Below are positions 1-61,661 of a DNA stretch of 64,000 nucleotides, piece by piece; position 1 is the stretch's first letter; every line of letters begins with the position of its first letter. Below the pieces are notes generated by a model that was not told the origin of the DNA, searched no databases, and was given only the letters and a program-made list of their open reading frames with translations. The translations under genes and the position numbers were made by a program. This DNA comes from Trypanosoma brucei (taxonomy: Eukaryota). The DNA lies in NCBI GenBank assembly GCA_000002445.1, contig CM000207.1, forward strand, positions 448,001-512,000, given 5' to 3'.

Positions 1-519
1 ACAAAGCTGTTGCGCTGTCATATCCGCACAGTTGACGTAGTGACACTGCACTCGCCGACCCTTCCCAAACAAGTGTGGGAACAGTACAGTTGGATCGCCT
101 GGGGTTGCTGCATTCCCAATGCTGCGGAAATGGCCGTCTTTAACGTTATCAGCGCTCACTGCCGCAGCACCCGCAGCATTCCCTTCGGTCTCGGACCCCC
201 GTTGGCGCTTTGTTGGTCGCTGCCGCTCCATTTGCTTCTGTTGCTTTCGTCCCGCTGCTGGCGGAGGCGAATCGCTGAGGCCCCCACCACCGTTGCTGCT
301 ATTGCTACCGGTGCTGGAGCGACCAGCCGCTTTATCATAAGTCATCACTCTATGCGTAACCCGGCGCATGGCCCGAATTATCGTTGACGTCTTACCAGAC
401 CCGCAAGCACCAAAGACAAATAGCGACTTGCAGTGCTGAATCAGCAGACGTTCCTCGATGAACCGAAGTACATCGTTATATTCTTGTTCCCGTCCCAATA
501 GCGGGGTATTTTCCATCAT
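1..519 (-). CDS. ORC1/CDC6-like AAA+ ATPase, 5' part only (N-terminal ~173 aa; gene continues past the window start). Possibly the ORC1B-type paralogue.
   Basis: Minus-strand ATG at 519-517 opens a stop-free frame to position 1. Translation MMENTPLLGREQEYNDVLRFIEERLLIQHCKSLFVFGACGSGKTSTI matches the ORC1/CDC6 signature (human ORC1 LPCREQEFQDIYNFVESKL...YISGVPGTGKT) including the Walker A GxxGSGKT. A polypyrimidine tract on the coding strand (complement of 541-564) lies just upstream of the ATG. Absent from the ORF track because it is truncated by the window edge. Confidence 0.6.
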   Translation of the reverse strand, partial: MMENTPLLGREQEYNDVLRFIEERLLIQHCKSLFVFGACGSGKTSTIIRAMRRVTHRVMTYDKAAGRSSTGSNSSNGGGGLSDSPPPAAGRKQQKQMERQRPTKRQRGSETEGNAAGAAAVSADNVKDGHFRSIGNAATPGDPTVLFPHLFGKGRRVQCHYVNCADMTAQQLC

Positions 520-540
520 TCCTCTCAAACGCGAAATAAG

Positions 541-564
541 TGAGACAAAAGGGAAGAAAGGGCC
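541..564 (-). promoter_or_regulatory. Polypyrimidine tract, putative trans-splice acceptor region for the ORC1-like gene
   Basis: The minus strand reads gccctttcttcccttttgtctcac followed by AG and then ATG within ~25 nt. This is the typical kinetoplastid polyY-AG arrangement. Confidence 0.4.
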
Positions 565-1746
565 GCGTGATGTGGGAAGCTGAATGCACAGCTTTGCTTT
601 TTTCCCCCCTCCAGAGTGAGGAATATATTTCGTCTTCTTGTATCTATGTATGAATGCGAAGATGACCTTCTTCTTCTCTGTATGTTTTGATATTGTGATG
701 GTTGTGATATCTATGCCACGGCAATCTTTTCTATAAGAGAAACAATACTGTGGTTACAGAAGCGAGTGTGTTACAAAAAAACTGGCGCGCACTCACTTAT
801 GTCGTCTAAACGTGTGTGTTTTCGTTTTTTTCTATGCGTGTAGCTTCCGCCTTCGATAGTGTGTGTATGTGTTGAAGCCCGTACGGGGTGAAAATAAATT
901 CTATTTCTTTTCCACCTTCCTCGGGGTATGTTCACTTCCCCTTTATTCGTGCTTCTCTCAGCTTAACTGCGTTGCGGCGAATTTTACCGAATGAGTTGTG
1001 CAGTAAGCCTAAGCTACAGCAGCGCTACGTGTGCACAAGATCCGCAAAAAAAAAAAACGAAAGTGACTCAGATTGAGAACAGAACAGGCCAGGGGGGGGG
1101 ACAGTAGCAAAAAAATAATAATAATAGCAAAGGATGCCATTGCAAATGAATCAGGGGGGGGGGAGGAAAAAGCGACACAACCACCCGCTAGTGGCGACGA
1201 GGCGCGCACTACTTACTTACAGAGCTACAGTCCATTACCATTATACCGGGGCAATGCCGACAGCTAACCCGCTCATTACAGTGCGTTCCACCTGAAATTC
1301 AAAATGTCATGCAGTGGCGGTAGGTGATGATCCTTGTTTTGTTTGTTGATTTGTGTGTACACCGGGAGGAGGTTTGGGGTTCAGAATCGAAGGAAGACAA
1401 AGAAAGCGCAAATGTAAAAGGAGGGGGATATACAACTGAAAGGAGTACAGACATTGGAAAGAGTTCACCACTTTTCCACTTAAACTCCGCTCCCGCCACC
1501 ACTCCATGTGCAAACAAACAAACAAACGCACAGGACACACACCACGGGCGGTAGTTGCTTTCTCTCCCCCTCTTCTTTTCATTCCCATGCGTGAAAACAC
1601 TTCCATCCGTTCCTCGATGCAGTTCAGCAACAGCAGACTGGATCTTTTTCCTCAACCAAAAGAGAGGCAAAACGGACGGGATGCAAGGTGTGACGGTCAC
1701 TGGACGTAAGTTGTGGAGTAGTAACGCCCAGGTACTAAGCACGCTT

Positions 1747-2997
1747 CTAAAATATTGTTAGTGTGGCGAAGACCGCGTAGAAGAGGGACAGTGGGTACAT
1801 GATGAGATATCTCTGCTTCTCCATGTGGAAACCTCTCACCAACATCGACGTTGCGCACCACGCGGACCAAAGAACGGCCAACAAGGCAGGCACCAACATC
1901 GTTTTACCGACATACCCAAATAACCAATACATCAGTGACTGCGAAGCTGCGAGAAAAACATTAGGAATCAAACCATAGCCTAACGCGCTGATGACGAACT
2001 GCAACGACACCGCATTTTCTGTCATGAGCGAGAGCAGGACTCTCATGAATATAACACCAATAACGAACTGCCCGTAAATGGTACTGAACCGCATGCTGCC
2101 CCGAAGTGAAAGCAAAATCGCAAGAAGAACGGCGAATACTATGGGTCCTGCGAGATCCATGCTGTCAGAAACGTTTTCCCCCATCTCTCTAAATGGGTTA
2201 AGGACGGCAAGTGCGTTGGCCCGTATTTCGTGAGGAAATATTCCCAGTTCGTCCAGTAGTGGAAGATCATCTTCGGGGTATCCGAAACGCTGCTGGTGCA
2301 GTGGAACTTGTCCTTGTGAGGTGTCGACTCCGCTTTCGTTGTTAAAGGCTGTCATCATATTCCGCAATGCAAGTGTCTGCAACAAATTCCCGAAGAATCC
2401 CGGTTGGGTTGGGGAATACGACGTTGGGGGTGGTGTTGGTGGTGGACCCGTTGAGGAGGTTCGTTGGTGCCACGACGTGCCCTGCAAGGGGAGCTGTTGA
2501 CCTTTTGGGGAATAGTCATGGAACACCGGTACCGCTGGATTCATTAGAGGCACAGTCGTTGCTACCGGCATCTGAATGAATGGATGAGCAGCAGTAGGTT
2601 TCGGTGATTGGGTTCCACTCACGAAATGGGAGGGGCTACTTTGGAAGCTGTTCCTATCTGAGCCTGTGCGAAAGGCTTTGGGCGATGCGCACGATGCCGG
2701 CCGTGAAAAGTACGGCGTTGCCGAAGCTACTTTAGGAGGTTGCGCTTGCATTTGTTGCTGCGGGTACTGATACGGATGCTGGTATTGTTGCTGTTGCTGT
2801 TGCTGTTGTTGCCGTATTGGGTTCATGTGGTTTGCGTCCCCTCCATTATAGAAGAAATCTTCTGGTCGTGCACCAGCTGACTGGTTGGGCCACGGCGCAA
2901 ACGGCGGCGGTTGCTGGTAGTAGTTACTGTTGTTGGCCCCATTAACTTCACCTTGATTCCCCTGGGGAAAGTATAAACCGTTTGGTTGCGGTTGCAT
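1747..2997 (-). CDS. Yip1-domain (Ypt/Rab-interacting) membrane protein with a Q/P-rich N-terminus
   Basis: ATG verified at 2997-2995. N-terminal half is P/Q-rich (QQQQQQQQQYQHPYQYPQQQ). C-terminal ~180 aa has the conserved Yip1 DLAGP and GY motifs followed by five hydrophobic helices (DLAGPIVFAVLLAILL...GYGLIPNVFL...). Confidence 0.7.
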   Translation of the reverse strand: MQPQPNGLYFPQGNQGEVNGANNSNYYQQPPPFAPWPNQSAGARPEDFFYNGGDANHMNPIRQQQQQQQQQYQHPYQYPQQQMQAQPPKVASATPYFSRPASCASPKAFRTGSDRNSFQSSPSHFVSGTQSPKPTAAHPFIQMPVATTVPLMNPAVPVFHDYSPKGQQLPLQGTSWHQRTSSTGPPPTPPPTSYSPTQPGFFGNLLQTLALRNMMTAFNNESGVDTSQGQVPLHQQRFGYPEDDLPLLDELGIFPHEIRANALAVLNPFREMGENVSDSMDLAGPIVFAVLLAILLSLRGSMRFSTIYGQFVIGVIFMRVLLSLMTENAVSLQFVISALGYGLIPNVFLAASQSLMYWLFGYVGKTMLVPALLAVLWSAWCATSMLVRGFHMEKQRYLIMYPLSLFYAVFATLTIF

Positions 2998-10697: not shown

Positions 10698-13600
10698 TCA
10701 TCGTTCATTGTAAAGGTGAATGGCATTTTCCTGCGGTGTGTACCTGCTGGGGACCCAAGAACGAACTTGAACCCTCGAGGCCACGGGTTGGACCCGAGTC
10801 ATCGAGAACCGCGAGGGTGTAGGACCGACAGGTGTGCAGTGGTAATGCGCATTGGCGACTCGTGAAGCGATCCTCCCCAACCTCCTCGCAGTTTGGGACG
10901 TCGAATCCACTGTTGTACTCAAAGCGTTAGAACCGGTTGGAGAATATGGTGGTCCCCAACTGCTGGAGTGGTGCGACGGAGAACCAGGGGAAAGGCGATT
11001 CCAGCCATCCCTTTCCGTTAGCGTTGACGTACTGTCTTGGTAACTCTGTTGAGTGAATACAGGAGAAGGCATCCTTCCGCTTGGCGCCGCTCTCATGGCT
11101 GATTGAAGTGTTGGTGCCCATGAATTTGGCACCTGTTGTTGGGGGGATAGGGAGCGCGAAGCTCCCTGCACTATTTCACGTTGGTGTTCTGAGAAGGATA
11201 GGCTAAGGCGTTTTCTTTGCGGAGGTGGGTGGGGTTGCAGATATTCACCGCGACCCAGCTGGCCAGGCCCCGGTTGGGTACTCATAAAAGCTGAGCCTTC
11301 TGAGTGCGGTTCGTACAAACCACTGGTTTCACTACGCACCTCAGCGACGGGCGGTAAAGTAACGCGCTGACGACCCAACTCACCACCCAGTCCGCTGTTG
11401 GCTTTATTTTGATGTTGCTTTGATCGATTATAAGCATTGGAGATGGTGCTTCTCTTGGCTGGTAACCGCGGTGGCCGTAAGTTGACACCATCACCAAACC
11501 CTAGGTCTGGATACAGCCCAAGATACACAAGCCGCTCACCCTGGAAATCGGGACCAAAAGGCTCAGAGTTGCCGGTGTCTTGTGCAAGATTCAGTTTTCG
11601 AGAGCTCCCTGATGATGACGGACGTGCGGCAGAAGCTATCGCATCCCTTGCAGCAACAGCTCTCAAACAAGATATACTACTTGCGGGTCTCTCACCAGTG
11701 ACAGAGGGGGTGAAACGACTCGAAGTGCGGAGGGCGGGGGAACCCAAAGATTCACTTCGGCCAGCACCTGGACGAAGGGAGCAGGGCGACCCACCATCGA
11801 CCACCCACGGACGCCGATTTTCAGCTTCTGCAGACTGCAAAGACACGTTACGACCAGTATTCTCCTCTTTCGTATCGTGAAGAACTCCATCGCAGCTGAA
11901 AACAACAGAGGGAGATGCAGCTGATTGATTCTTTTCGCGGTAATCAAATGGGGAACTGCCGACATCCCGCGCATTCAGGACGCAGTGTTGGAGATCACGG
12001 CGCCGCGGTGCAGAAAAACGTGACGGTGTCCCCGACAATTTCGAGTGACTACGCATAGATGATGACACATCGGGCAGAGCGCTAACACCTCCAGCTTCTT
12101 TATCGCTGACGTTAGCAATGTCACCGCTCATACTGATAGTTGAACCTACCCGTTCCGTGGACACTCCTTCCGCTTTTGGTGAGTCATCGGCATTGTTATT
12201 GGCTTCAGCAGTTTGACACCGCCTTCGATTATTTGGCAGTCGCGCAGTTTTTTCCTTTGATGATACACCGGCAGAGGCACACCCACTACCCAAAGCATTG
12301 TTCAGTGTGGTAATCACGGCATCACGTGCAGCGTCAACAGCCGAGTTTTTCACAGCACTCCTCAAAGTTGATCTAACAGCAGAGACTCCACCCCCCGTAG
12401 GGGCACCATCATAAATCATATTTGACATTTCTTCCGACGACCAGCGTATAAACTCCTCACCATCAACAACTAGCTGAGCGCAGACATCAACAGAAACGAC
12501 GATTGCTTCACCAAATACAACAGGTTCCACAACAGCAGATGAAAAACTTGTTAACTTACCGCCCCTCCGAGTGTCAACAGATCCCACTTCACCCCCCTTC
12601 ACCGACAACACATCAACATCCTTTGACAACGAGGAAATCTCTCGCATTTCATTGCAGGCATCAGCCTCAAAACGAAATACTTTCCCCTCAACACCAGAAT
12701 TATCTAATGTAAGGCGATTAGCAGAAGAGACGTCACTACCAACAGATGGTACACCATCAATTTCAAAATCCTCAACATCTTCAGGAGCAGCTGTTCCTGT
12801 AACATCAGTTTTACTTCCCTCGCCATCACAAACAAATCCATCACTTCCACCATCCTCTTTGCTCAGTTCCTTTGCATCAACATCAGCTGTGGGAATAGCT
12901 GCATCCTCTTTGCTCAGTTCCTTTGCATCATCATCAGCTGTAGGAATAGCTGCATCCTCTTTGCTCAGTTCCTTTGCATCATCATCGGCTGTGGGAATAG
13001 CTGCATCCTCTTTGCTCAGTTCCTTTGCATCATCATCAGCAGTGGGAATAGCTGCATCCTCTTTGCTCAGTTCCTTTGCATCATCATCAGCTGTAGGAAT
13101 AGCTGCATCCTCTTTGCTCAGTTCCTTTGCATCAACATCAGCTGTGGGAATAGCTGCATCCTCTTTGCTCAGTTCCTTTGCATCAACATCAGCTGTGGGA
13201 ATAGCTGCATCCTCTTTGCTCAGTTCCTTTGCATCATCATCAGCTGTAGGAATGGCTGCATCCTCTTTGCTCAGTTCCTTTGCATCATCATCAGCTGTGG
13301 GAATGGCTGCATCCTCTTTGCTCAGTTCCTTTGCATCATCATCAGCTGTAGGAATAGCTGCATCCTCTTTGCTCAGTTCCTTTGCATCATCATCGGCTGT
13401 GGGAATAGCTGCATCCTCTTTGCTCAGTTCCTTTGCATCATCATCAGCTGTGGGAATAGCTGCATCCTCTTTGCTCAGTTCCTTTGCATCATCATCGGCT
13501 GTGGGAATAGCTGCATCCTCTTTGCTCAGTTCCTTTGCATCAACATCAGCTGTGGGAATGGCTGCATCCTCTTTGCTCAGTTCCTTTGCATCATCATCAG

Positions 13601-16600
13601 CTGTGGGAATAGCTGCATCCTCTTTGCTCAGTTCCTTTGCATCATCATCAGCTGTAGGAATAGCTACATCCTCTTTGCTCAGTTCCTTTGCATCATCATC
13701 GGCTGTGGGAATAGCTGCATCCTCTTTGCTCAGTTCCTTTGCATCATCATCAGCTGTGGGAATGGCTGCATCCTCTTTGCTCAGTTCCTTTGCATCATCA
13801 TCGGCTGTGGGAATAGCTGCATCCTCTTTGCTCAGTTCCTTTGCATCATCATCAGCTGTGGGAATAGCTGCATCCTCTTTGCTCAGTTCCTTTGCATCAT
13901 CATCAGCTGTGGGAATGGCTGCATCCTCTTTGCTCAGTTCCTTTGCATCATCATCAGCTGTAGGAATAGCTGCATCCTCTTTGCTCAGTTCCTTTGCATC
14001 ATCATCGGCTGTGGGAATAGCTGCATCCTCTTTGCTCAGTTCCTTTGCATCAACATCAGCTGTGGGAATGGCTGCATCCTCTTTGCTCAGTTCCTTTGCA
14101 TCATCATCGGCTGTGGGAATAGCTGCATCCTCTTTGCTCAGTTCCTTTGCATCAACATCAGCTGTGGGAATGGCTGCATCCTCTTTGCTCAGTTCCTTTG
14201 CATCATCATCAGCTGTGGGAATAGCTGCATCCTCTTTGCTCAGTTCCTTTGCATCATCATCAGCTGTAGGAATAGCTACATCCTCTTTGCTCAGTTCCTT
14301 TGCATCATCATCGGCTGTGGGAATAGCTGCATCCTCTTTGCTCAGTTCCTTTGCATCAACATCAGCTGTGGGAATAGCTGCATCCTCTTTGCTCAGTTCC
14401 TTTGCATCATCATCAGCTGTGGGAATAGCTGCATCCTGTTTGCTCAGTTCCTTTGCATCATCATCGGCTGTGGGAATAGCTGCATCCTGTTTGCTCAGTT
14501 CCTTTGCATTATCATCAGCTGTGGGAATAGCTGCATCCTCTTTGCTCAGTTCCTTTGCATCAACATCAGCTGTGGGAATAGCTGCATCCTCTTTGCTCAG
14601 TTCCTTTGCATCAACATCAGCTGTGGGAATAGCTGCATCCTCTTTGCTCAGTTCCTTTGCATCAACATCAGCTGTGGGAATGGCTGCATCCTCTTTGCTC
14701 AGTTCCTTTGCATCAACATCAGCTGTGGGAATAGCTGCATCCTCTTTGCTCAGTTTCTTTGCATCAACATCAGCTGTGGGAATAGCTGCATCCTCTTTGC
14801 TCAGTTTCTTTGCATCAACATCAGCTGTGGGAATAGCTGCATCCTCTTTGCTCAGTTCCTTTGCATCATCATCAGCTGTGGGAATAGCTGCATCCTCTTT
14901 GCTCAGTTCCTTTGCATCATCATCAGCTGTGGGAATAGCTGCATCCTCTTTGCCCAGTTCCTTTGCATCATCATCAGCTGTGGGAATAGCTGCATCCTGT
15001 TTGCTCAGTTCCTTTGCATTATCATCAGCTGTGGGAATAGCTGCATCCTCTTTGCTCAGTTCCTTTGCATCATCATCAGCTGTGGGAATAGCTGCATCCT
15101 CTTTGCTCAGTTCCTTTGCATCAACATCAGCTGTGGGAATAGCTGCATCCTCTTTGCTCAGTTTCTTTGCATCAACATCAGCTGTGGGAATAGCTGCATC
15201 CTCTTTGCTCAGTTCCTTTGCATCAACATCAGCTGTGGGAATAGCTGCATCCTCTTTGCTCAGTTCCTTTGCATCAACATCAGCTGTGGGAATAGCTGCA
15301 TCCTCTTTGCTCAGTTCCTTTGCATCAACATCAGCTGTGGGAATAGCTGCATCCTCTTTGCTCAGTTCCTTTGCATCAACATCAGCTGTGGGAATAGCTG
15401 CATCCTCTTTGCTCAGTTTCTTTGCATCAACATCAGCTGTGGGAATGGCTGCATCCTCTTTGCTCAGTTCCTTTGCATCAACATCAGCTGTGGGAATGGC
15501 TGCATCCTCTTTGCTCAGTTCCTTTGCATCAACATCAGCTGTGGGAATAGCTGCATCCTCTTTGCTCAGTTTCTTTGCATCAACATCAGCTGTAGGAATA
15601 GCTGCATCCTCTTTGCTCAGTTCCTTTGCATCATCATCAGCTGTGGGAATAGCTGCATCCTCTTTGCTCAGTTCCTTTGCATCATCATCAGCTGTGGGAA
15701 TAGCTGCATCCTGTTTGCTCAGTTCCTTTGCATCATCATCAGCTGTGGGAATGGCTGCATCCTGTTTGCTCAGTTCCTTTGCATCAACATCAGCTGTGGG
15801 AATAGCTACATCCTCTTTGCTCAGTTCCTTTGCATCATCATCAGCTGTGGGAATAGCTACATCCTCTTTGCTCAGTTCCTTTGCATCATCATCAGCTGTG
15901 GGAATAGCTACATCCTCTTTGCTCAGTTCCTTTGCATCATCATCAGCTGTGGGAATAGCTGCATCCTCTTTGCTCAGTTCCTTTGCATCAACATCAGCTG
16001 TGGGAATAGCTACATCCTCTTTGCTCAGTTCCTTTGCATCATCATCAGCTGTGGGAATAGCTGCATCCTCTTTGCTCAGTTCCTTTGCATCAACATCAGC
16101 TGTGGGAATAGCTGCATCCTCTTTGCTCAGTTCCTTTGCATCAACATCAGCTGTGGGAATAGCTGCATCCTCTTTGCTCAGTTCCTTTGCATCATCATCG
16201 GCTGTGGGAATAGCTACATCCTCTTTGCTCAGTTCCTTTGCATCATCATCAGCTGTGGGAATGGCTGCATCCTGTTTGCTCAGTTCCTTTGCATCAACAT
16301 CAGCTGTGGGAATAGCTACATCCTCTTTGCTCAGTTCCTTTGCATCATCATCAGCTGTGGGAATAGCTACATCCTCTTTGCTCAGTTCCTTTGCATCATC
16401 ATCGGCTGTGGGAATAGCTGCATCCTGTTTGCTCAGTTCCTTTGCATCATCATCGGCTGTGGGAATAGCTGCATCCTGTTTGCTCAGTTCCTTTGCATCG
16501 TGAGCTGCATCATTATTTGTTTTATCGTTATCACTTCCTTTATTTTTCTGTTGGAGTTCAGTGATTGTGATGTTGTCAATGACCTTTTGCGCGTTGTCAG

Positions 16601-19229
16601 ATACGGCTTTATCCATTGATTGTTGTATTAGATTGGTTAAAATTGTTTCTTTACCTTCTTGTTCGCCATTTGTGTCCAAATGTTGCTGTTTGTTTATTGT
16701 TTTGCCGTGTTGTGGTGAGTCAAATTGATTGTGTACCGTGTGCTCATTTTCGTGTGTGGTAAGCGGTTTTTCTTGCTGGTTATTGTTTGTTTCTTTAGTT
16801 GTGAAGTCGTCGCAAGTTTCTGTACCCTCTTGTTTAATTTTGTCACTGGCTCGCCGGCTTGGAACTATTTCTTGAGTGGCAACGGTATCGTTAAGGGACG
16901 GAGTGCCACCCTCGCTACCTGTTGACCCCTTCAAAACCGTGTTTTCCCCTGCGTTGTTCAAGAGTGTTTGTTCCGCTGACAGGGCATCCCCTGGTTGTTG
17001 ATGCATGGGCTCTGTTGCTTGTATTGACAGCCGATTAGAAGAATTGATTTTGTGTTCTAAATTTGTCGGTGTTGTCCCCCCAGTTTGTTTTCCTGTATCT
17101 TGTTCTTTTGATGTCCTTTCCTCTCCCTCCACTATCGTGGTAGGCTGCATACCGTTCGCCAGTTCTTGTTCTGCATGTCGTTGATTCGGTGATTCGCGTG
17201 TCTGCCGCTCTTTCTCATCTATATTTTGGCATTTTCCCACAGGAGTGAGTTGATCCCTTGTGACAGTGGTGTGCTCTTGGCAATTTCCATTGTTAATTAA
17301 CAGTTGAGAAGTATTCACCCCTTGACAACCGTTGAATTGTTGCTCAGTTGCTTGACAAGGTGGCTGTTGGTACTGCTGGAGAGCCAGCCGAAGAGACATG
17401 ACCTCTTTCTGTATAGCAGTGGTTGCACTCATTATGTATTGTTCAGAGCTCTCCGTCGCGGTGGTTCCTGCAAATTGTTCTTCGGAGCAAACATTTGTTT
17501 CGTGTTCAACTGCACTAGGTACCGATTTTTCATTTCCTGGGACCAGTGCGTCTTCGTTGAACCCCAAAACTCTGTTAACTTGCGGGGCAAACACCTGCTC
17601 CACTTTATGTGTGTGTAGTGTCTGTTGTTGTTGGTTGCCCTTATTAGTCTCGACTTCGGTGGCCGTTCTCACATCACCGAGATGCCCATGCAGATATTCT
17701 GTGGTAACACTACTGCTGTGTTCTTCCCAAAAAGGCTGAGAAGTAGGCGGCTCCTTCGTTTTCACACTTTGTACTTGGCTCCTTTGGTTCTGTGAGGATT
17801 TCCTCCTTTTCCCCTCCAGAAGTTCATACAACTTGTGAACGTTGTTCAGTTCACATGTAGTAATGATGTCGCGAATTGCAGCATCACTGAGTTTGCCGTC
17901 GTGTTGTATGGATACCTCCACCATATTTGAATTTCTACAATTAAGTGCTACCGAAACATTTCCATGCGGTACCCCAAGAGAGTGTGCGATATCTTTTTCA
18001 TATGCCTGACATAGGTGAAACGGTACCACGCGCAACGACGTGTTTTGCTTGCTCTTGGGAAGGTCAAGGAGGAACATTGACTCTCTGGGGACCAACTTGG
18101 GCACCATCGCCCTTCGTGACATCTTTTGTCCCCTGCCTTCTCCCTTTTTAGGAGACATCTCACTGAGGGGCGAGGGAGTGCTCCGTTGCGACAACAGACA
18201 TGGCTTTCTAGGGCTTGAGCACGCTAATGTTGCTGTCAATGAGAACGTGTCACCCAACGCGTCATACTTGAGGCGTCGCAACTTGTACCGTATATGCTGC
18301 TCCGCCGTATACAGTGCCTCCCTATTTAATGTTTCCTCGAACGCTACATATTGTATGTCGTCAAGCATATCTTGACTCATTTCCTCCCATGCTTCTGCCG
18401 CGTCACCTGCACTGCTGGAGCGCTGTGAAGAGCAAGTAGCAGCGAACCCCGGGCACCCCCCTTTTGCTTCCATTTGGCTACTGCTCACTGCACCTGGGCT
18501 GGGGGTTCCCGTCCACCGGGATGTGTCGAATGTCTTCCCGGTGCTGTTCAATTTGTTTAAAACTTTACTGACTATTGCCCCTGTCTCCCCCTCGTCGCCA
18601 GCTGCACCACCCATATACACTTCGTTTCGCTGCGGCGAGCCTTCTTTCCTATCGCTGCCGCTCCGTTGATTTCCCTGTGTATTTCGGTCCTGTGCCACCA
18701 CAGCAATTTTGTACAAGTTCCCAACATGTCGTACGTTATCAGGCGTCAGAAGAGTGTAGGCGCCCTTGTTTTTATCAAAATATGTGATAAACACCACGCT
18801 TAGTTGTAAGAGCTCTGCGTTCTTCTGTATAGTTTCCAATACTGTCTCTATTGTCAGGGGGCCGTCGACATGCGGTGCCCCAACTAGCATAGAACCAACC
18901 AGCTCACCCGAGTCGGATATAAACTCGAGAGACCAGTTTTCTCCATTTATTGTGCCCTCCAGACGGCTTCCACTCGCACCCTGAGATCGGGGGTAACCCC
19001 CTTTGCCCCACGTGCCATCGTAGGTTGATTGCAGCGATATGTCACCCGACTGTTTTTCGAAACGAGACAATGGCCTACTGTAAGGTTCCAATAAATCCGC
19101 ACTGTACGTTGAAGGCGTGTCCCTGCCACTGTGTAGGTTTCTGCCGGCTTGGTTGGGGCGTTCGCTGCCGGTAGCTACACGACCATCTAAATGTCCGTCT
19201 CCCGGATGTGCCCTAGAGGTAAAATACAT
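10698..19229 (-). CDS. Giant tandem-repeat protein (2843 aa): unique N-terminal domain, ~70 x 17-aa acidic repeats DAKELSKEDAAIPTAD[D/V], long S-rich C-terminal region
   Basis: ATG verified at 19229-19227. Single uninterrupted frame of 8.5 kb on the gene strand. The repeat unit is exactly 51 nt and near-identical between copies. Flanking regions are non-repetitive and serine-rich. Confidence 0.75.
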   Translation of the reverse strand: MYFTSRAHPGDGHLDGRVATGSERPNQAGRNLHSGRDTPSTYSADLLEPYSRPLSRFEKQSGDISLQSTYDGTWGKGGYPRSQGASGSRLEGTINGENWSLEFISDSGELVGSMLVGAPHVDGPLTIETVLETIQKNAELLQLSVVFITYFDKNKGAYTLLTPDNVRHVGNLYKIAVVAQDRNTQGNQRSGSDRKEGSPQRNEVYMGGAAGDEGETGAIVSKVLNKLNSTGKTFDTSRWTGTPSPGAVSSSQMEAKGGCPGFAATCSSQRSSSAGDAAEAWEEMSQDMLDDIQYVAFEETLNREALYTAEQHIRYKLRRLKYDALGDTFSLTATLACSSPRKPCLLSQRSTPSPLSEMSPKKGEGRGQKMSRRAMVPKLVPRESMFLLDLPKSKQNTSLRVVPFHLCQAYEKDIAHSLGVPHGNVSVALNCRNSNMVEVSIQHDGKLSDAAIRDIITTCELNNVHKLYELLEGKRRKSSQNQRSQVQSVKTKEPPTSQPFWEEHSSSVTTEYLHGHLGDVRTATEVETNKGNQQQQTLHTHKVEQVFAPQVNRVLGFNEDALVPGNEKSVPSAVEHETNVCSEEQFAGTTATESSEQYIMSATTAIQKEVMSLRLALQQYQQPPCQATEQQFNGCQGVNTSQLLINNGNCQEHTTVTRDQLTPVGKCQNIDEKERQTRESPNQRHAEQELANGMQPTTIVEGEERTSKEQDTGKQTGGTTPTNLEHKINSSNRLSIQATEPMHQQPGDALSAEQTLLNNAGENTVLKGSTGSEGGTPSLNDTVATQEIVPSRRASDKIKQEGTETCDDFTTKETNNNQQEKPLTTHENEHTVHNQFDSPQHGKTINKQQHLDTNGEQEGKETILTNLIQQSMDKAVSDNAQKVIDNITITELQQKNKGSDNDKTNNDAAHDAKELSKQDAAIPTADDDAKELSKQDAAIPTADDDAKELSKEDVAIPTADDDAKELSKEDVAIPTADVDAKELSKQDAAIPTADDDAKELSKEDVAIPTADDDAKELSKEDAAIPTADVDAKELSKEDAAIPTADVDAKELSKEDAAIPTADDDAKELSKEDVAIPTADVDAKELSKEDAAIPTADDDAKELSKEDVAIPTADDDAKELSKEDVAIPTADDDAKELSKEDVAIPTADVDAKELSKQDAAIPTADDDAKELSKQDAAIPTADDDAKELSKEDAAIPTADDDAKELSKEDAAIPTADVDAKKLSKEDAAIPTADVDAKELSKEDAAIPTADVDAKELSKEDAAIPTADVDAKKLSKEDAAIPTADVDAKELSKEDAAIPTADVDAKELSKEDAAIPTADVDAKELSKEDAAIPTADVDAKELSKEDAAIPTADVDAKKLSKEDAAIPTADVDAKELSKEDAAIPTADDDAKELSKEDAAIPTADDNAKELSKQDAAIPTADDDAKELGKEDAAIPTADDDAKELSKEDAAIPTADDDAKELSKEDAAIPTADVDAKKLSKEDAAIPTADVDAKKLSKEDAAIPTADVDAKELSKEDAAIPTADVDAKELSKEDAAIPTADVDAKELSKEDAAIPTADVDAKELSKEDAAIPTADDNAKELSKQDAAIPTADDDAKELSKQDAAIPTADDDAKELSKEDAAIPTADVDAKELSKEDAAIPTADDDAKELSKEDVAIPTADDDAKELSKEDAAIPTADDDAKELSKEDAAIPTADVDAKELSKEDAAIPTADDDAKELSKEDAAIPTADVDAKELSKEDAAIPTADDDAKELSKEDAAIPTADDDAKELSKEDAAIPTADDDAKELSKEDAAIPTADDDAKELSKEDAAIPTADDDAKELSKEDAAIPTADDDAKELSKEDAAIPTADDDAKELSKEDVAIPTADDDAKELSKEDAAIPTADDDAKELSKEDAAIPTADVDAKELSKEDAAIPTADDDAKELSKEDAAIPTADDDAKELSKEDAAIPTADDDAKELSKEDAAIPTADDDAKELSKEDAAIPTADDDAKELSKEDAAIPTADDDAKELSKEDAAIPTADVDAKELSKEDAAIPTADVDAKELSKEDAAIPTADDDAKELSKEDAAIPTADDDAKELSKEDAAIPTADDDAKELSKEDAAIPTADDDAKELSKEDAAIPTADVDAKELSKEDGGSDGFVCDGEGSKTDVTGTAAPEDVEDFEIDGVPSVGSDVSSANRLTLDNSGVEGKVFRFEADACNEMREISSLSKDVDVLSVKGGEVGSVDTRRGGKLTSFSSAVVEPVVFGEAIVVSVDVCAQLVVDGEEFIRWSSEEMSNMIYDGAPTGGGVSAVRSTLRSAVKNSAVDAARDAVITTLNNALGSGCASAGVSSKEKTARLPNNRRRCQTAEANNNADDSPKAEGVSTERVGSTISMSGDIANVSDKEAGGVSALPDVSSSMRSHSKLSGTPSRFSAPRRRDLQHCVLNARDVGSSPFDYREKNQSAASPSVVFSCDGVLHDTKEENTGRNVSLQSAEAENRRPWVVDGGSPCSLRPGAGRSESLGSPALRTSSRFTPSVTGERPASSISCLRAVAARDAIASAARPSSSGSSRKLNLAQDTGNSEPFGPDFQGERLVYLGLYPDLGFGDGVNLRPPRLPAKRSTISNAYNRSKQHQNKANSGLGGELGRQRVTLPPVAEVRSETSGLYEPHSEGSAFMSTQPGPGQLGRGEYLQPHPPPQRKRLSLSFSEHQREIVQGASRSLSPQQQVPNSWAPTLQSAMRAAPSGRMPSPVFTQQSYQDSTSTLTERDGWNRLSPGSPSHHSSSWGPPYSPTGSNALSTTVDSTSQTARRLGRIASRVANAHYHCTPVGPTPSRFSMTRVQPVASRVQVRSWVPSRYTPQENAIHLYNER
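12850..16505 (-). repeat. 51-bp tandem repeat array (~71 units), coding, inside the giant ORF
   Basis: Plus-strand unit gctgtgggaatagctgcatcctctttgctcagttcctttgcatcatcatca is repeated head-to-tail. Only a handful of substitution types occur (atc/aac, agct/ggct, atagct/atggct, gcatcc/acatcc, tcctct/tcctgt, gttcc/gtttc) and they appear in blocks. Confidence 0.95.
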
Positions 19230-33458: not shown

Positions 33459-34088
33459 TTACATACGCCGCACCGCAGGGGCATCGTAGAGCCCATTCAC
33501 TTCCCATTGTGGAACTAATATATCGCTCACCATAAACGATAGCGGCACTGGCGGCTGAAGCGGTTGCCCAACTGTTTCTTCAATAGCCCGCTCAATGGCT
33601 GATTCGTTCAAATCCAGTGGGTTGACAGGCGGGAGCGGGAACCGGCGATGCTGCGACCCTCCGCTACGCCAGGAGGATTGAAGGGCTAAAAAATAGCTTT
33701 TACCAACAGGTAATCCTTCTCCCCACAATTCGCGTGTATCATCGCCATGAATAACACCGGAGGTGCGGTTAGCGGGAAATGGGACGCCAGCACATGTGAG
33801 TGGGACATGCGGCGATGTGGACAACACGCCGCTGCTTTGATTATGGCGGCCCACCTGCCACTCACGTGCAAGCTCCGATTCCTTTACGGAAAGCCATGAA
33901 CGTCGCAACATCGAGGCTTCACCAAACGGTATCGGTAACGGTACTACTCCTGCGCATTCAGTTGGAACAGTTATATTTGGCATGTGTTTTCCTCCTGATG
34001 TGGCTGAACGGTGCTCTGACGCCCCCGGGTCCTTTTCGGTATTATTGGTATAATTGCAGATGCCGGGGGAGGAGCCTCGCTGACCCAT
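33459..34088 (-). CDS. Hypothetical protein (209 aa), no recognisable domain
   Basis: The track ORF starts at a GTG (34175). The first in-frame ATG is at 34088-34086. Same strand as neighbours but no motif support. Confidence 0.25.
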   Translation of the reverse strand: MGQRGSSPGICNYTNNTEKDPGASEHRSATSGGKHMPNITVPTECAGVVPLPIPFGEASMLRRSWLSVKESELAREWQVGRHNQSSGVLSTSPHVPLTCAGVPFPANRTSGVIHGDDTRELWGEGLPVGKSYFLALQSSWRSGGSQHRRFPLPPVNPLDLNESAIERAIEETVGQPLQPPVPLSFMVSDILVPQWEVNGLYDAPAVRRM

Positions 34089-34220
34089 CAATGGGGAAAC
34101 GCCACCGGGCAGCGCCAGTGTCGATAAATGCCCCACGCGCCCTTCACCTTCCCTTCGCCTCCTCGTTTTTGCCACACAATCAAATCCTCACGAACCTTAC
34201 TAATATATGTATCTATCTTA

Positions 34221-34275
34221 ATATATATATATATATATGTGTGTGTATATGTATGTGTATGTATGTGTATGTGTT
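34221..34275. repeat. (TA)n then (GT/GTAT)n compound microsatellite
   Basis: Direct read; sits in a 2.6-kb ORF-free AT-rich tract. Confidence 0.85.
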
Positions 34276-34688
34276 TGTGAGTACTTATCCTTATTTGCTT
34301 TTTTTTTCTTTTGCTTGCTTGTGTGCTATCCCCTCCTTTATCCTGGTGCTCCTTTTCTTGCGCAGCCCTCCCCTTTCTCCTTCCTTCTTTGCCTTTAAGT
34401 TGTCGTATAACTACAAATACCCTTTTCTTTCTTCTACCCCTCTAGAAGGGATTAAAAATATGAATTAAGTTGTGTCTTCACCACTTGCGTAAGTGTGGTA
34501 TTGTTTCCTCTGCCGCTTCAAATTTTTTTAAGGAGGGGGAGGGAAAAAAAAAATCTCAACAACTGCAGTTCCTTTTCCTCTTCTTCACTTGACGTAAAGA
34601 TGGTCACGTGATTAAGATTCCGTGGGTACACGTTGCTGAAACTTCTCTCTTCTTCCTTTCACTAATGATGTGTCCGGCTTTTTTTTTC

Positions 34689-34691
<3 letters not shown>

Positions 34692-34726
<35 letters not shown>
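34692..34726. repeat. (TA)n microsatellite, ~17 units
   Basis: Direct read; intergenic. Confidence 0.9.
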
Positions 34727-34728
<2 letters not shown>

Positions 34729-36755
34729 TAAAAAGAAAAACTTTTATTCGACTACTACTACTTCTCCTGCTGCAGCGTGTGTCGCTTTCTTCGGTTTTAT
34801 TGTTTATTTATTTTGAAACTTCTCGCCCTTGCGAACAGAGACGACACAACACTTTGAAAAACCAGATGAGAGATTAAAAAGAAAAAAAATTGAAAAAGTA
34901 AGAGACACCCTTTCCCCTCTTGTTTCTCTTCCTTCCCTCTTTCTACTTTACAATAAAAAAAAGGGTAAAATAATAATAATAATGTATCAAATATTTATTT
35001 ATTTTATCCTCTTTCCCTTGGCGTTATCCTCCTCTTTTACGGCTGCTCAAGAAGATTAAAAGGAAAAAAAAAAACAGATGCTGATAGATTTTTTTCTGTT
35101 TTTTTTGTCTTCATACTGATAGAATATTAATATTAAAACAGTAATGGTCACACAATCATTTATCATACGAAATATTATGGAATAGTTGCGGCAACGCACG
35201 CTTAAGCAGCAATGAGGAGAAAAAAGAAAATTTTATTTTTTATTTCGTTTTAAAGCATTTTTTTTAAAAAAAAGGAAAAACAACAGAACCCAAACAATTT
35301 TGAGCTATCGCCTCACCGTAGCAAGGGTGAAAGAATAATAAAAATAATAGTAATGGCAACCAGAAACTAAAAGTAAAAAAAAAAAAAGAAAAATGACATA
35401 TTCCTCTCCTTCCCACCTTTTCACTCGCCCAAACCCCTTTTTTTTTCTTTCGGTTAAGTGCGAGCAAACCGCTCGTCACCAACAGGAAGCGAAAAGGGTC
35501 AAAAAAGAAAACAAAAACAAAAATCGTCCAGACGCGCAAACGAAGCAGTTGAACGAAATTGTTGGAGGAAGGAAGGAATGAAGGGGGAAAAAAAAAGAAA
35601 GAAAAAAACATTAAACAAGTGGTGCTCACAGTGTAGAGAGTACATCAACTTTAAAATAGGAAAATAATTTAAAGAAACTGAAGGCAAACAACCCAATGGG
35701 TTAAGCTCAAACAAAATACAAATATTCTTGCGTTTCCCATACACCGTAGTTTATTTATTTTTTTTTTGTCATTTTGAAAAAAAATTATATCCCTTCCTCC
35801 TTTCTCTTTTCTCTGTTTCTCGTGTTTTTACTTGCTTGATTTTGTTTCCCTTTCACTCTTATTCCACTTTCTTGCGTTCCCTCAGGTGATGAAAGGAAGA
35901 ATTTATCTTTTGTTTATTTTTATATTTGCTTTAGAGGGGAAGAGAAATAAGCAAGGGCCGGGTGTGTGAGAGGGGGAAAAAAAACATAACAAAAATAAAA
36001 ACAATTGGATTTTAGTTGAGGGCACAAAAGTAAGTAAAAACATAAATTTTGATGAAACATAAGTTTATTCTCTATATATTCATTCGAATTTTTACAGAAG
36101 TTGTGTATGAACACACATGAATATTTATATAAATTAATTATGAAAATGTGAGGCAGGATGGAGTGAACGGTGAGCACCGCCTATCCATCCAAGTAGAGGG
36201 GGGAAAATATGCGTAAAAAACATATATTAATTTTTTTTTTTTACTACGTCACCCTTTCTTCATTATCATTCCTCACGCGCCGCCAAGCACAGTCAAAACA
36301 ACAAACAAGCATACACACCAAAACATGAACAATCAAACGAGTACATAAAAGTATATATATATGCCTGCCCACGTTTGTACTTACGGCTGATTAAACGTAT
36401 ATAAGTAGATACAAACACACACACGTACATATACATATATGTAGTAGTTGGAACATTCATTTCATATTCATATGCACGTGTATGATTTGCTCACCCCGGT
36501 TTCCACCTCCCTGTTTTTTTTTCCTTTCCTAGTGCTTACTTAACTCGCACACACACTCTCTTTCCACTCCACATCCCCTTCTATAATCAGAAACAAAAGA
36601 AAGGAAAAGAAAAGCAAAACAGTTCATATCCGTTCAGACAGTCATCAAGATGAGTAATGGGCACAGAGAGCTAACTGAGCCTTTACTCGAGCACGACGGT
36701 ACACAGACATTAGGGCAGACAAAAGAAAAACCAGAAGAGAATATAAACACACATT

Positions 36756-57462: not shown

Positions 57463-57824
57463 TAGACACCGAAAAAAAAAAAGCAGTATAGAATACACGA
57501 CCCATAAGGCATCATTCAAAGGGGTTGTCAGATTGCTGAAAAAGGGAAATGAAGAGAAAATAATATAACATGGATATACACACAAAACAACAACAACATT
57601 AAAAACACCACAAAGGCCGAATCGAACGGCTGCGAGTCCAACTCGCCTACGGGTTTGAAGCCCGCACCCAGCACCAGCTGAGCTCATCGTGGCGCAACTT
57701 TTTCTTCCATCATCGGATTGAAATTCCATACTCGTGTCATACAGTCGCGTTTTGGGTGGTGACAAGTAACATTTCTCCTTCTCATTCCTTTAAATCCTTT
57801 TTCTTCATCTTTTAGTTGCAAGAA
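57463..57824 (-). repeat. 362-bp direct repeat, copy 1, containing a tRNA-Sec gene
   Basis: Matches 61300-61661 from tagacaccgaaaaaaaaaaagcagtatag through ttagttgcaagaa. Sequence diverges immediately outside both ends. Confidence 0.9.
57606..57693 (-). tRNA. Selenocysteine tRNA (anticodon UCA), copy 1
   Basis: Minus strand gccacgatgagctcagctggtgctgggtgcgggcttcaaacccgtaggcgagttggactcgcagccgttcgattcggcctttgtggtg. Folds with a 9-bp acceptor and 4-bp T stem (the eukaryotic tRNA-Sec 9/4 architecture). Anticodon stem gcggg/cccgt with loop cuUCAaa, identical to the human tRNA-Sec loop. 5-bp variable-arm stem, T-loop gttcgattc, discriminator g, followed by T5. Confidence 0.85.
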
Positions 57825-61100: not shown

Positions 61101-61196
61101 CGTTCGCTTTACGAGATCATCACACCAGGAGAGGGGGACACCATCAAGAATATGCGAGGGAGGGAACAAAATGTTGACAGTCAGATACTCCTCCAT
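58182..61196 (-). CDS. Serine/threonine protein kinase (1004 aa) with a long C-terminal extension
   Basis: ATG verified at 61196-61194. Gly-loop LGTGSFSSV, FFAAKSF (AxK), HRD LLHRDIKPSNILL, DFG LADFGIATKV, APE CAYLPPEIA, subdomain IX SDIWSAAALFYVFLTGG. Acidic DSDEEEEEDEEE in the C-terminal region. Confidence 0.85.
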   Translation of the reverse strand: MEEYLTVNILFPPSHILDGVPLSWCDDLVKRTVGPNGGLRFPLLGSGSKSSLHEYPVDRLLSGGSSGFRSGQHACASCGEATGDWGEGDDIDGIIFNSSYSIDCLFNTVLKLGTGSFSSVTVLQSRLRPTRFFAAKSFTQLPSPIMLLSSVCGREGAMNELHLTPSGVGCAVLNHCPMLCNLLREAQVIATLPRHPRLERFYGVFVEHDPLYGTDCMPTSSPRTVAAPTSVHMVVEVGIGGTFGELLKLYGSYIAEEHLVCWMSQILSGLACLHGNGLLHRDIKPSNILLRNRVSPTNWESNVELILADFGIATKVTDSDSQTERTVVGSCAYLPPEIARYWGYRHRCPYSYASDIWSAAALFYVFLTGGGLGMDEGMLTVTFNGMIPSFMSPTESESNATVAARLWVARGDYPPLATLAVIPLVDDKALQISIRELAARRGCHEESICGEHSVGVDKEDGNIIATDRISGTQYTRYTSLSGDETKEGVTSTTQWPPWVLTPSVQLMARALRARNLSAEFLHCIDRMMAVDPAERPTAKKLLLESPIFSLRMPWWEKSVEASVKRIVEGKEDVLLDVCLGDSDEEEEEDEEEAALLGRTMTPSVLPIDNGRYLPHNVVHWWSVDVSGDMLERRGNAQTTSLLEHILTALGNLRAYDTPVDPIVSVQSTTDHESHRKLPMYMPKTLCFVERVFLQMQEYDIAFQTVGDNGPLLEELEARGLNTNFFIHSQLRLSASARVDKVYLPSLIEDDEDILDEEEAAHCAMEMLVSAVNTWLEDRLDGETDTATACGNTLSPLPWVSWSHNYFAGAGERCFIVEYVSAVPLAIPSPAPPNRITTITGDVHTVFMHWRANLVDAHRRSQHGDATTTDCEDVPYDNHIGDVGPSTTKLEGCMDKWLEALDDAEFRLLHKEEEEIKECAQHWAIPPNRITRWLCVSPVPSPCECAQFMRETLDDGTEIRARVNKLVSDICFRTEGALILQSRPRARAVSQCSSSVYRCSAHRRW

Positions 61197-61299: not shown

Positions 61300-61661
61300 T
61301 AGACACCGAAAAAAAAAAAGCAGTATAGAATACACGACCCATAAGGCATCATTCAAAGGGGTTGTCAGATTGCTGAAAAAGGGAAATGAAGAGAAAATAA
61401 TATAACATGGATATACACACAAAACAACAACAACATTAAAAACACCACAAAGGCCGAATCGAACGGCTGCGAGTCCAACTCGCCTACGGGTTTGAAGCCC
61501 GCACCCAGCACCAGCTGAGCTCATCGTGGCGCAACTTTTTCTTCCATCATCGGATTGAAATTCCATACTCGTGTCATACAGTCGCGTTTTGGGTGGTGAC
61601 AAGTAACATTTCTCCTTCTCATTCCTTTAAATCCTTTTTCTTCATCTTTTAGTTGCAAGAA
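61300..61661 (-). repeat. 362-bp direct repeat, copy 2, containing a tRNA-Sec gene
   Basis: Near-identical to 57463-57824. Lies ~100 nt upstream of the kinase ATG at 61196. Confidence 0.9.
61443..61530 (-). tRNA. Selenocysteine tRNA (anticodon UCA), copy 2
   Basis: Sequence and fold identical to copy 1. Followed by a T5 run on the minus strand (aaaaa at 61438-61442 on plus). Confidence 0.85.

What the first reader, a model, noticed from the sequence alone, without database searches (positions are those of the whole stretch)
1..519. ORC1/CDC6-like gene at the window edge, omitted from the ORF track
The N-terminal 173 aa reproduce the ORC1/CDC6 hallmark (GREQE...Walker A GxxGSGKT). Trypanosomatid replication-initiator components are few and divergent; an ORC1/CDC6 and a second ORC1B-like paralogue are known. 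This truncated gene is probably one of them, and its position downstream in this transcription unit is relevant because origins in these organisms map to transcription-unit boundaries.
Basis: partly seen in the sequence, partly recalled or inferred. Interest (0 to 1): 0.5.

Follow-up and report, generated by a model that had tools for sequence, protein, structure and literature searches.

The report
Start of the known TbORC1B gene

Summary
Window 1-519 (minus strand) encodes exactly 173 codons from an ATG at 519, with LLGREQEY and a Walker A box GACGSGKT, and it runs off the window edge.

The window is T. brucei TREU927 chromosome 9. The fragment is 100% identical to the start of the 602-aa protein EAN76315.1/XP_803517.1.

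The published TbORC1B (Tb927.9.2030) RT-qPCR forward primer matches window 19-38 exactly. Three further published TbORC1B primers (RT-qPCR reverse, RNAi forward, tagging reverse) map inside the full-length gene on a T. equiperdum contig. That contig is identical to the window over all 700 bases compared.

The full-length protein has Walker B, sensor 1 and sensor 2 motifs. Its predicted structure has a lid and a C-terminal winged-helix domain.

A family profile hits human ORC1 (E 2.8e-16) and CDC6 (7.8e-16), far ahead of RFC4 (0.013). The top 24 Foldseek matches are all Orc1/Cdc6.

No conserved arginine sits at the Orc1 arginine-finger position, and there is no BAH domain. A disordered 42-244 aa insert splits the AAA+ core, and most of this insert lies in the window.

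The remark about a transcription-unit boundary is not supported: more same-strand genes follow downstream.

Verdict: already known, low interest.

The parts
1..519 (-). First 173 codons of TbORC1B (Tb927.9.2030; 602 aa in full), cut by the window edge
   Evidence: Translation. 100% identical to residues 1-173 of P0039 = EAN76315.1/XP_803517.1. DNA identical to the T. equiperdum full-length copy at L002:12470-14278.
478..501 (-). LLGREQEY (aa 7-14): start of the N-terminal helix that precedes the P-loop in Orc1/Cdc6 proteins
   Evidence: Aligns with human ORC1 'LPCREQEF'. R10 and E13 are invariant and E11 is nearly invariant in 12 homologues. The model puts a helix at aa 11-25 with pLDDT above 90.
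388..411 (-). Walker A / P-loop GACGSGKT (aa 37-44)
   Evidence: Read directly from the sequence. G37, C39, G40, G42, K43 and T44 are invariant in 12 homologues. Pfam AAA_16 matches aa 7-57 at E 7.8e-05, below the gathering score.
61..348 (-). Low-complexity insert (aa 58-153) between the Walker A helix and strand beta2 of the AAA+ core, predicted to be disordered
   Evidence: pLDDT is below 50 for aa 62-140. The insert is 42-244 aa long and poorly conserved across the family.
199..249 (-). Basic cluster RKQQKQMERQRPTKRQR (aa 91-107) inside the insert, which looks like a nuclear localisation signal
   Evidence: Read from the sequence. K/R clusters occur in the insert of 11 of 12 homologues. 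The function is inferred, not tested.
22..51 (-). VQCHYVNCAD (aa 157-166): strand beta2 of the AAA+ core
   Evidence: The model has a strand at aa 157-163 with pLDDT above 80. N163, C164, A165 and D166 are invariant. This stretch is identical in T. grayi.
19..38 (-). Binding site of the published TbORC1B RT-qPCR forward primer ACGTCAACTGTGCGGATATG
   Evidence: The primer is given in Marques et al. 2016, PMC4889932. It has one exact match in the window and none in 100 shuffles.
520..1746 (-). Intergenic region between the YIP1 stop codon and the ORC1B ATG. It carries pyrimidine-rich runs on the coding strand. The 5' UTR and the trans-splice site were not mapped here.
   Evidence: Sequence. The upstream gene is YIP1 at 1747-2997. 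The same gene order is seen in T. grayi and T. equiperdum.

Best explanation
Window 1-519 (minus strand) is the 5' end of the T. brucei gene ORC1B (Tb927.9.2030, chromosome 9). The gene encodes a 602-aa Orc1/Cdc6-type AAA+ protein.

Shown here: the protein has the N-terminal helix and the P-loop, followed by a disordered insert and then the rest of the AAA+ core. That core carries Walker B (D248 E249), the sensor-1 Asn (N282) and sensor 2 (GDVR, R351). A lid and a C-terminal winged-helix domain follow. There is no BAH domain.

From the literature: ORC1B interacts with ORC1/CDC6 and MCM3. Its loss stops nuclear DNA synthesis within one cell cycle. It is detectable in the nucleus only in S/G2.

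Inferred mechanism: ORC1B binds ATP and docks transiently, at S-phase entry, into the diverged ORC-like complex (ORC1/CDC6, ORC4, Tb7980, Tb3120). It would take a Cdc6-like position and so complete or activate the MCM-loading complex. Because no conserved arginine lies at the Orc1 arginine-finger position, it probably receives a neighbour's finger rather than supplying one. The disordered insert, with its basic cluster and S/T-P sites, is a plausible handle for nuclear import or cell-cycle control.
For: Identity:
- Five other window proteins match T. brucei TREU927 chromosome 9 proteins exactly, including SUMO1/Ulp2. SENP is Tb927.9.2220.
- The fragment equals residues 1-173 of P0039 = EAN76315.1.
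- TbORC1B is Tb927.9.2030 according to PMC4889932.
- The TbORC1B qPCR forward primer matches window 19-38.
- The qPCR reverse, RNAi forward and tagging reverse primers map inside L002:12470-14278. The tagging primer ends on the last sense codon.
- L002 is identical to the window over 700 bases.

Family:
- A profile of 12 homologues hits human ORC1 at E 2.8e-16, human CDC6 at 7.8e-16, and Drosophila, yeast and archaeal Orc1/Cdc6. RFC4 reaches only 0.013.
- The conserved motifs are listed.
- The AlphaFold model shows the AAA+ core, lid and winged helix.
- Foldseek ranks 1-24 are all Orc1/Cdc6, and archaeal Orc1 reaches TM 0.62 over its whole chain.
- Pfam Cdc6_C is found in 3 of 12 family members, one of them above the gathering score.

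Function comes from the literature.
Against: - T. brucei ORC1B itself does not reach any Pfam gathering score.
- Its winged-helix domain is supported only by the model, by the fold matches and by homologues.
- The model is of moderate quality (mean pLDDT 67.9, pTM 0.52, only 12 sequences).
- The mechanism is not established. A 2021 review states that no work has shown ORC1B to be a true ORC component and that neofunctionalisation cannot be excluded. [quoted passage not shown]
- The absence of an arginine finger rests on a sequence alignment across a 6-residue length difference.
Confidence: 0.97

Rival explanations
1. The gene is the other trypanosome initiator, TbORC1/CDC6 (Tb927.11.7216).
For: The fragment has the same kind of N-terminus: an Orc1/Cdc6-like helix and P-loop with no BAH domain.
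Against: The window is chromosome 9, not 11. The published ORC1B-specific primers match this gene. The ORC1/CDC6 gene ID given in the paper is on chromosome 11.
Confidence: 0.01
2. It is a different P-loop family, such as an RFC clamp-loader subunit, a Cdc48-like AAA+, a STAND NTPase or a kinesin, that only resembles Orc1/Cdc6 around the P-loop.
For: For the 173-aa fragment alone, Pfam gives only sub-threshold generic matches: AAA_16, nSTAND1, AAA_22, AAA_7 and Kinesin.
Against: With the full-length family profile, Orc1 and Cdc6 score E 1e-16 to 1e-7, while RFC4 scores 0.013. Foldseek ranks 1-24 are Orc1/Cdc6 and RFC first appears at rank 28. The Orc1/Cdc6-type sensor 2 'SGDxRxxxxxCRR', the 'F.xY' box and a Cdc6_C winged helix are present.
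Confidence: 0.01
3. It is Tb7980, the Orc5-like ORC1/CDC6 partner, which also has a Walker A box very close to its N-terminus (GPPGSGKT, residues 33-40).
For: The Walker A box sits at a similar position (aa 37-44 here, against 33-40 in Tb7980).
Against: Tb7980 is Tb927.10.7980 on chromosome 10. Its P-loop sequence differs (GPPGSGKT against GACGSGKT). The ORC1B primers match this gene.
Confidence: 0.005
4. It is a chance open frame or a decayed pseudogene at the window edge.
For: The gene is truncated in the window. About half of the fragment is low-complexity sequence.
Against: The full 602-codon frame is intact in T. b. brucei, T. b. gambiense and T. equiperdum. It is syntenic in T. grayi. 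Motifs are invariant across 12 kinetoplastid homologues. The protein has been tagged and detected experimentally.
Confidence: 0.005

Closest known systems
TbORC1B (Tb927.9.2030; EAN76315.1 / XP_803517.1 / UniProt Q38FV5), described by Dang & Li 2011 and Marques et al. 2016
   Same: It is this gene. The protein is 100% identical over the 173 residues in the window, the published primers match, and the gene lies on chromosome 9 next to YIP1.
   Different: Nothing differs. The window simply holds only the first 29% of the coding sequence.
Eukaryotic Orc1 and Cdc6 (human ORC1 5uj7_A/7jpo_A, human CDC6 8s0e_G, Drosophila 7jgr_A/G, yeast 5v8f)
   Same: It shares the N-terminal helix 'L.GRE.E', Walker A, Walker B (DE), sensor 1 (Asn), the 'F.xY..QL..I' box, sensor 2 (SGD.R....CRR), the lid and the C-terminal winged helix.
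   Different: There is no BAH domain or N-terminal extension. A 42-244 aa disordered insert lies between the Walker A helix and beta2. No conserved Arg sits at the position of the Orc1 finger (human 'SSRL'). There is an extra conserved C-terminal helical tail (aa about 559-599). Expression is limited to S phase, opposite to Cdc6 (literature). Orc1 and Cdc6 score equally (62.8 against 61.3 bits), so orthology to one or the other cannot be decided.
Archaeal Orc1/Cdc6 (S. solfataricus 2qby_A/B, A. pernix 2v1u_A, P. aerophilum 1fnn_A)
   Same: The architecture is the same compact AAA+ plus lid plus winged helix, starting directly at the AAA+ domain. These give the best TM-scores (0.61-0.62 normalised to the target).
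   Different: Sequence similarity is weak (E 7e-06 to 3e-03 with the profile). The archaeal proteins lack the insert and the C-terminal tail.
TbORC1/CDC6 (Tb927.11.7216), the paralogue in the same organism
   Same: Both are Orc1/Cdc6-like AAA+ proteins without a BAH domain, and the two interact (literature).
   Different: ORC1/CDC6 is nuclear throughout the cell cycle and keeps all ATPase motifs. ORC1B is more diverged and limited to S/G2. Their sequences were not compared here.

Membership tests
TbORC1B (Tb927.9.2030), identity of the gene | The sequence matches the reagents published for TbORC1B | tested here: met
   The qPCR forward primer matches window 19-38 exactly. The qPCR reverse, RNAi forward and C-terminal tagging reverse primers match L002:13014-13032, 13268-13287 and 14256-14275, all inside the gene. 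The primers are taken from PMC4889932.
TbORC1B (Tb927.9.2030), identity of the gene | The gene lies on T. brucei chromosome 9 in the Tb927.9.2xxx neighbourhood | tested here: met
   Five window proteins are exact matches to TREU927 proteins on the 3,057,547-bp contig, including SUMO1/Ulp2. SENP is Tb927.9.2220.
Orc1/Cdc6 initiator-clade AAA+ | Walker A motif GxxGxGK[ST] | tested here: met
   GACGSGKT at aa 37-44, window 388-411. It is invariant in 12 homologues.
Orc1/Cdc6 initiator-clade AAA+ | Walker B motif (hhhhDE) | tested here: met
   HVLVLDEVEY, with D248 and E249 invariant. It aligns to human ORC1 VLLVDELD. It lies outside the window.
Orc1/Cdc6 initiator-clade AAA+ | Sensor 1 polar residue (Asn) at the end of beta4 | tested here: met
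   FISNQR, with S281 and N282 invariant. It aligns to human ORC1 'IAN'.
Orc1/Cdc6 initiator-clade AAA+ | Sensor 2 arginine in a 'GDxR' motif in the lid | tested here: met
   SGDVRQVAVMCRR, with G348, D349 and R351 invariant. It aligns to human ORC1 SGDARRCLDICRR.
Orc1/Cdc6 initiator-clade AAA+ | Arginine finger (box VII, human ORC1 'SSRL') | tested here: not met
   In the HMM alignment, the human 'SSRLgL' segment faces 'pqml.leeL'. T. brucei has HMLLKEL and the homologues have E/D/Q/K at this position. The only invariant Arg nearby is R284, two residues after the sensor-1 Asn. This result rests on the alignment alone, so a structurally shifted finger is not excluded.
Orc1/Cdc6 initiator-clade AAA+ | Extra helical insert (initiator-specific motif) between alpha2 and beta3 | tested here: inconclusive
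   The model has helices at aa 169-183, 189-199 and 201-218 before strand 242-248, which is consistent with such an insert. The model is of moderate quality and no residue-level superposition was inspected.
Orc1/Cdc6 initiator-clade AAA+ | C-terminal winged-helix domain | tested here: met
   The model has helices 502-515 and 523-536 followed by a beta-hairpin at 543-553. Full-chain Foldseek alignments to Orc1/Cdc6 structures that include their winged-helix domain give TM up to 0.62. Pfam Cdc6_C matches 3 of 12 homologues, with P0048 at 25.9 bits against a cut-off of 25.1. T. brucei ORC1B itself does not score with Pfam.
   The profile scores ORC1 at 2.8e-16, CDC6 at 7.8e-16 and RFC4 at 0.013. 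Foldseek ranks 1-24 are Orc1/Cdc6 and RFC first appears at rank 28.
Eukaryotic Orc1 proper | N-terminal BAH domain or a long N-terminal regulatory region | tested here: not met
   The protein starts 8 residues before the GRE motif, and the first ATG of the frame is at window 519.
Eukaryotic Cdc6 / static ORC subunit (by behaviour) | Present in G1 for licensing and removed in S phase, or constitutive on chromatin | not testable with these tools
   The literature reports the opposite: the nuclear signal is seen only in S/G2 and mRNA peaks in late G1.

The most novel reading that the evidence does not exclude
The most novel reading left open concerns the disordered insert that splits the AAA+ core between the Walker A helix and beta2 (aa 58-153, window 61-348). 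This insert may be the module that restricts ORC1B to S-phase nuclei. It carries a basic NLS-like cluster, RKQQKQMERQRPTKRQR, and S/T-P sites. Phospho-regulated import or degradation through this insert would make ORC1B the licensing switch in an organism with no detectable Cdt1 or canonical Cdc6. I found no paper in the held library that assigns a role to this insert.
Probability: 0.2. Interest if true: 0.35.

Novelty: already known. Interest (0 to 1): 0.08.

Why it matters
The finding adds nothing new. It re-finds the 5' end of a published gene, and the gene looked unannotated only because the window cuts it.

ORC1B itself remains biologically interesting. It is an Orc1/Cdc6-like factor that appears only in S phase, in a lineage with a diverged ORC and no recognised Cdt1. 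How it acts is still an open question in trypanosome replication.

The part inside the window (P-loop plus disordered insert) would be the place to test ATP binding and cell-cycle control. That would be an experimental programme on a known protein, not a discovery from this sequence.

Tried and rejected
- the word-indexed protein search with the 173-aa fragment returned only a partial T. grayi orthologue. It missed the 100% identical T. brucei protein. The exhaustive HMMER search found it.
- exact look-ups of the 359-aa YIP1 variant and of P0039 found no record. The 416-aa YIP1 look-up gave the T. equiperdum contig, which extends the window leftwards.
- Dang & Li 2011 (PMC3173170), the first description of Orc1b, is not held. 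Its claims are cited only through later papers.
- no paper mentions the accessions XP_803517, Q38FV5 or EAN76315. The link to Tb927.9.2030 was therefore made through primer sequences.
- The comparison was redone with the alignment and search tools.
- Rejected readings: TbORC1/CDC6, Tb7980, RFC or another P-loop family, and a pseudogene (see the rival explanations).
- Also rejected: any significance of the gene's position for origin mapping.

Full report
**Observation**

The minus strand of window 1-519 is one open frame of 173 codons. It begins MMENTPLLGREQEYNDVLRFIEERLLIQHCKSLFVFGACGSGKTSTIIRAMRRV... and is still open at base 1. GREQE is aa 9-13 (window 481-495). The Walker A box GACGSGKT is aa 37-44 (window 388-411).

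The mechanical ORF list leaves the frame out because it runs off the end of the window.

The fragment alone matches no Pfam family above threshold; AAA_16 reaches E 7.8e-05. Its best solved-structure match is human ORC1, at E 0.0013 over aa 9-54.

**Where the window comes from**

Six ATG-started window ORFs were looked up by exact sequence, and all six are in the collection. Five of them equal proteins of T. brucei brucei TREU927 on a 3,057,547-bp contig. These include SUMO1/Ulp2 (EAN76330) and a Ser/Thr kinase (EAN76342). The sixth, the 416-aa YIP1 form, matches T. equiperdum exactly; TREU927 annotates a shorter 359-aa form.

The trypanosome SUMO protease SENP is Tb927.9.2220, so the window is chromosome 9. 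All 17 non-overlapping ORFs of 200 aa or more are on the minus strand. The window is therefore part of one polycistronic unit read from right to left.

**Full-length gene**

The word-indexed protein search found only a partial T. grayi orthologue, P0001. It is 55% identical by BLASTP (59% in the alignment), is also cut by a contig end, and has the same upstream neighbours, Yip1 and an Arf-like gene.

An exhaustive HMMER search with the two-sequence profile found P0039. This 602-aa protein is identical to the window fragment over residues 1-173. P0039 is EAN76315.1 / XP_803517.1 / Q38FV5, named 'hypothetical protein, conserved' or 'AAA+ ATPase domain-containing protein'. It has 602-aa copies in T. 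b. gambiense and T. equiperdum.

Looking up the neighbouring YIP1 protein returned a T. equiperdum contig, L002. L002 is identical to the window over all 700 bases compared and carries the complete gene at 12470-14278.

**Identity with TbORC1B**

Marques et al. 2016 (PMC4889932) give TbORC1B as Tb927.9.2030 and list its primers.

| Primer | Sequence | Match |
|---|---|---|
| RT-qPCR forward | ACGTCAACTGTGCGGATATG | window 19-38, minus strand, exact; none in 100 shuffles |
| RT-qPCR reverse | TCCAAGCGAACCTGTGAAC | L002 13014-13032 |
| RNAi forward | CTATCGGCTGAGTACGCCTC | L002 13268-13287 |
| C-terminal tagging reverse | CAGGGATAAAATGCCCTTGA | L002 14256-14275, ending on the last sense codon before the stop |

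All three L002 matches lie inside the gene. The gene is therefore TbORC1B.

Twelve kinetoplastid homologues were aligned; they are 29-42% identical to T. brucei ORC1B. The invariant features are:

- P6, R10 and E13 in the N-terminal helix
- G37, C39, G40, G42, K43 and T44 (Walker A)
- N163, C164, A165 and D166 (beta2)
- D248 and E249 (Walker B, HVLVLDEVEY)
- S281, N282 and R284 (sensor 1, FISNQR)
- F299 and Y302 (the 'F.xY' box)
- G348, D349 and R351 (sensor 2, SGDVRQV..CRR)
- a conserved C-terminal block

The profile of this alignment was searched against the PDB.

| PDB target | E-value |
|---|---|
| Human ORC1 | 2.8e-16 |
| Human CDC6 | 7.8e-16 |
| Drosophila ORC1 | 1.2e-12 |
| Drosophila Cdc6 | 2.6e-12 |
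| Yeast Cdc6 | 1e-07 |
| Yeast Orc1 | 2.4e-07 |
| Archaeal Cdc6/Orc1 | 7e-06 |
| RFC4 | 0.013 |

An AlphaFold2 model was built on the 12-sequence alignment (mean pLDDT 67.9). It has a confident AAA+ core (aa 10-60, 141-210 and 241-330), a lid (332-371), and a winged-helix-like domain with a beta-hairpin at 543-553. Two C-terminal helices follow. The insert at aa 62-140 and the linkers are predicted to be disordered.

Foldseek against the PDB puts Orc1/Cdc6 chains at ranks 1-24, from E 9e-10. Archaeal Orc1 gives TM 0.61-0.62 normalised to the target. RFC first appears at rank 28.

Pfam Cdc6_C (the winged helix) is found in 3 of 12 homologues, one of them above the gathering score. AAA_lid_10 is also found in 3 of 12.

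**Departures from canonical Orc1/Cdc6**

1. There is no BAH domain or N-terminal extension. The ATG at window 519 is the first in the frame.
2. A low-complexity insert lies between the Walker A helix and beta2. It is 98 aa in T. brucei and 42-244 aa across the family. It has a K/R cluster in 11 of 12 members and S/T-P sites in all 12. Most of what the window holds is this insert.
3. No conserved arginine sits at the position that aligns with the human ORC1 arginine finger ('SSRL'). T. brucei has HMLLKEL there. This rests on the alignment only.
4. Orc1 and Cdc6 score the same, so orthology to either one is undecided.

**Mechanism**

According to the papers read here, ORC1B interacts with ORC1/CDC6 and MCM3. 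RNAi against it reduces EdU incorporation within one cell cycle. The protein is detected in the nucleus only in S/G2, unlike any known ORC subunit or Cdc6. [quoted passage not shown] It has not been shown to be a true ORC component.

My inference is that ORC1B is an ATP-binding Orc1/Cdc6-like protein that docks transiently in a Cdc6-like position to complete or activate the ORC-MCM assembly at S-phase entry. The disordered insert is a candidate import or regulation handle. Both steps are inference and were not shown here.

**Transcription-unit remark**

This remark is not supported. The window shows no strand switch. Downstream of ORC1B, the T. equiperdum contig carries ribosomal protein L38e, a class-V aminotransferase/kynureninase-like gene and a further 704-aa gene on the same strand within about 7 kb. 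Only two small unannotated opposite-strand calls lie between them.

**Verdict**

Interest is low.

Noticed in passing
window 57606-57693 and 61443-61530 (minus strand): ARAGORN finds two tRNA-Sec genes (anticodon TCA) on the same strand as the protein-coding array, on either side of the 1004-aa Ser/Thr kinase ORF at 58182-61196. From my own knowledge, T. brucei tRNA-Sec has been reported to be transcribed by RNA polymerase II from within a polycistron. That was not checked here.
   Followed up: no
window 12851-16499, inside the minus-strand ORF 10698-19229 (2843 aa): A 51-bp tandem repeat is present in 71.5 copies with 96% matches. This means a very regular 17-aa repeat makes up about 40% of a giant protein. 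The repeat also produces a spurious 1310-aa ORF on the plus strand and a strong AT skew.
   Followed up: no
window 34001-36000: GC content drops to 0.358, against 0.45-0.53 elsewhere, in a stretch with no ORF of 200 aa or more. I did not determine what is there.
   Followed up: no
window 1747-2997 (minus strand): The YIP1 ORF is 416 aa from its first ATG, and it is annotated that way in T. equiperdum and T. b. gambiense. TREU927 annotates a 359-aa protein that starts at a later ATG. This is an inconsistency in start-codon annotation between strains.
   Followed up: partly
proteins P0052-P0057, from unnamed Logan assemblies: These more distant ORC1B-like proteins (344-616 aa) share the 'GRE.E...FVFGACGCGKTST' N-terminus. 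One of them (P0052, 344 aa) has almost no insert after the Walker A helix. This suggests the insert expanded within trypanosomatids. Their source organisms are unknown.
   Followed up: no
L001 10001-10569 (T. grayi JMRU01000257.1): The T. grayi ORC1B orthologue is also cut by a contig end, at 190 aa. It is deposited as a 'partial hypothetical protein'.
   Followed up: yes
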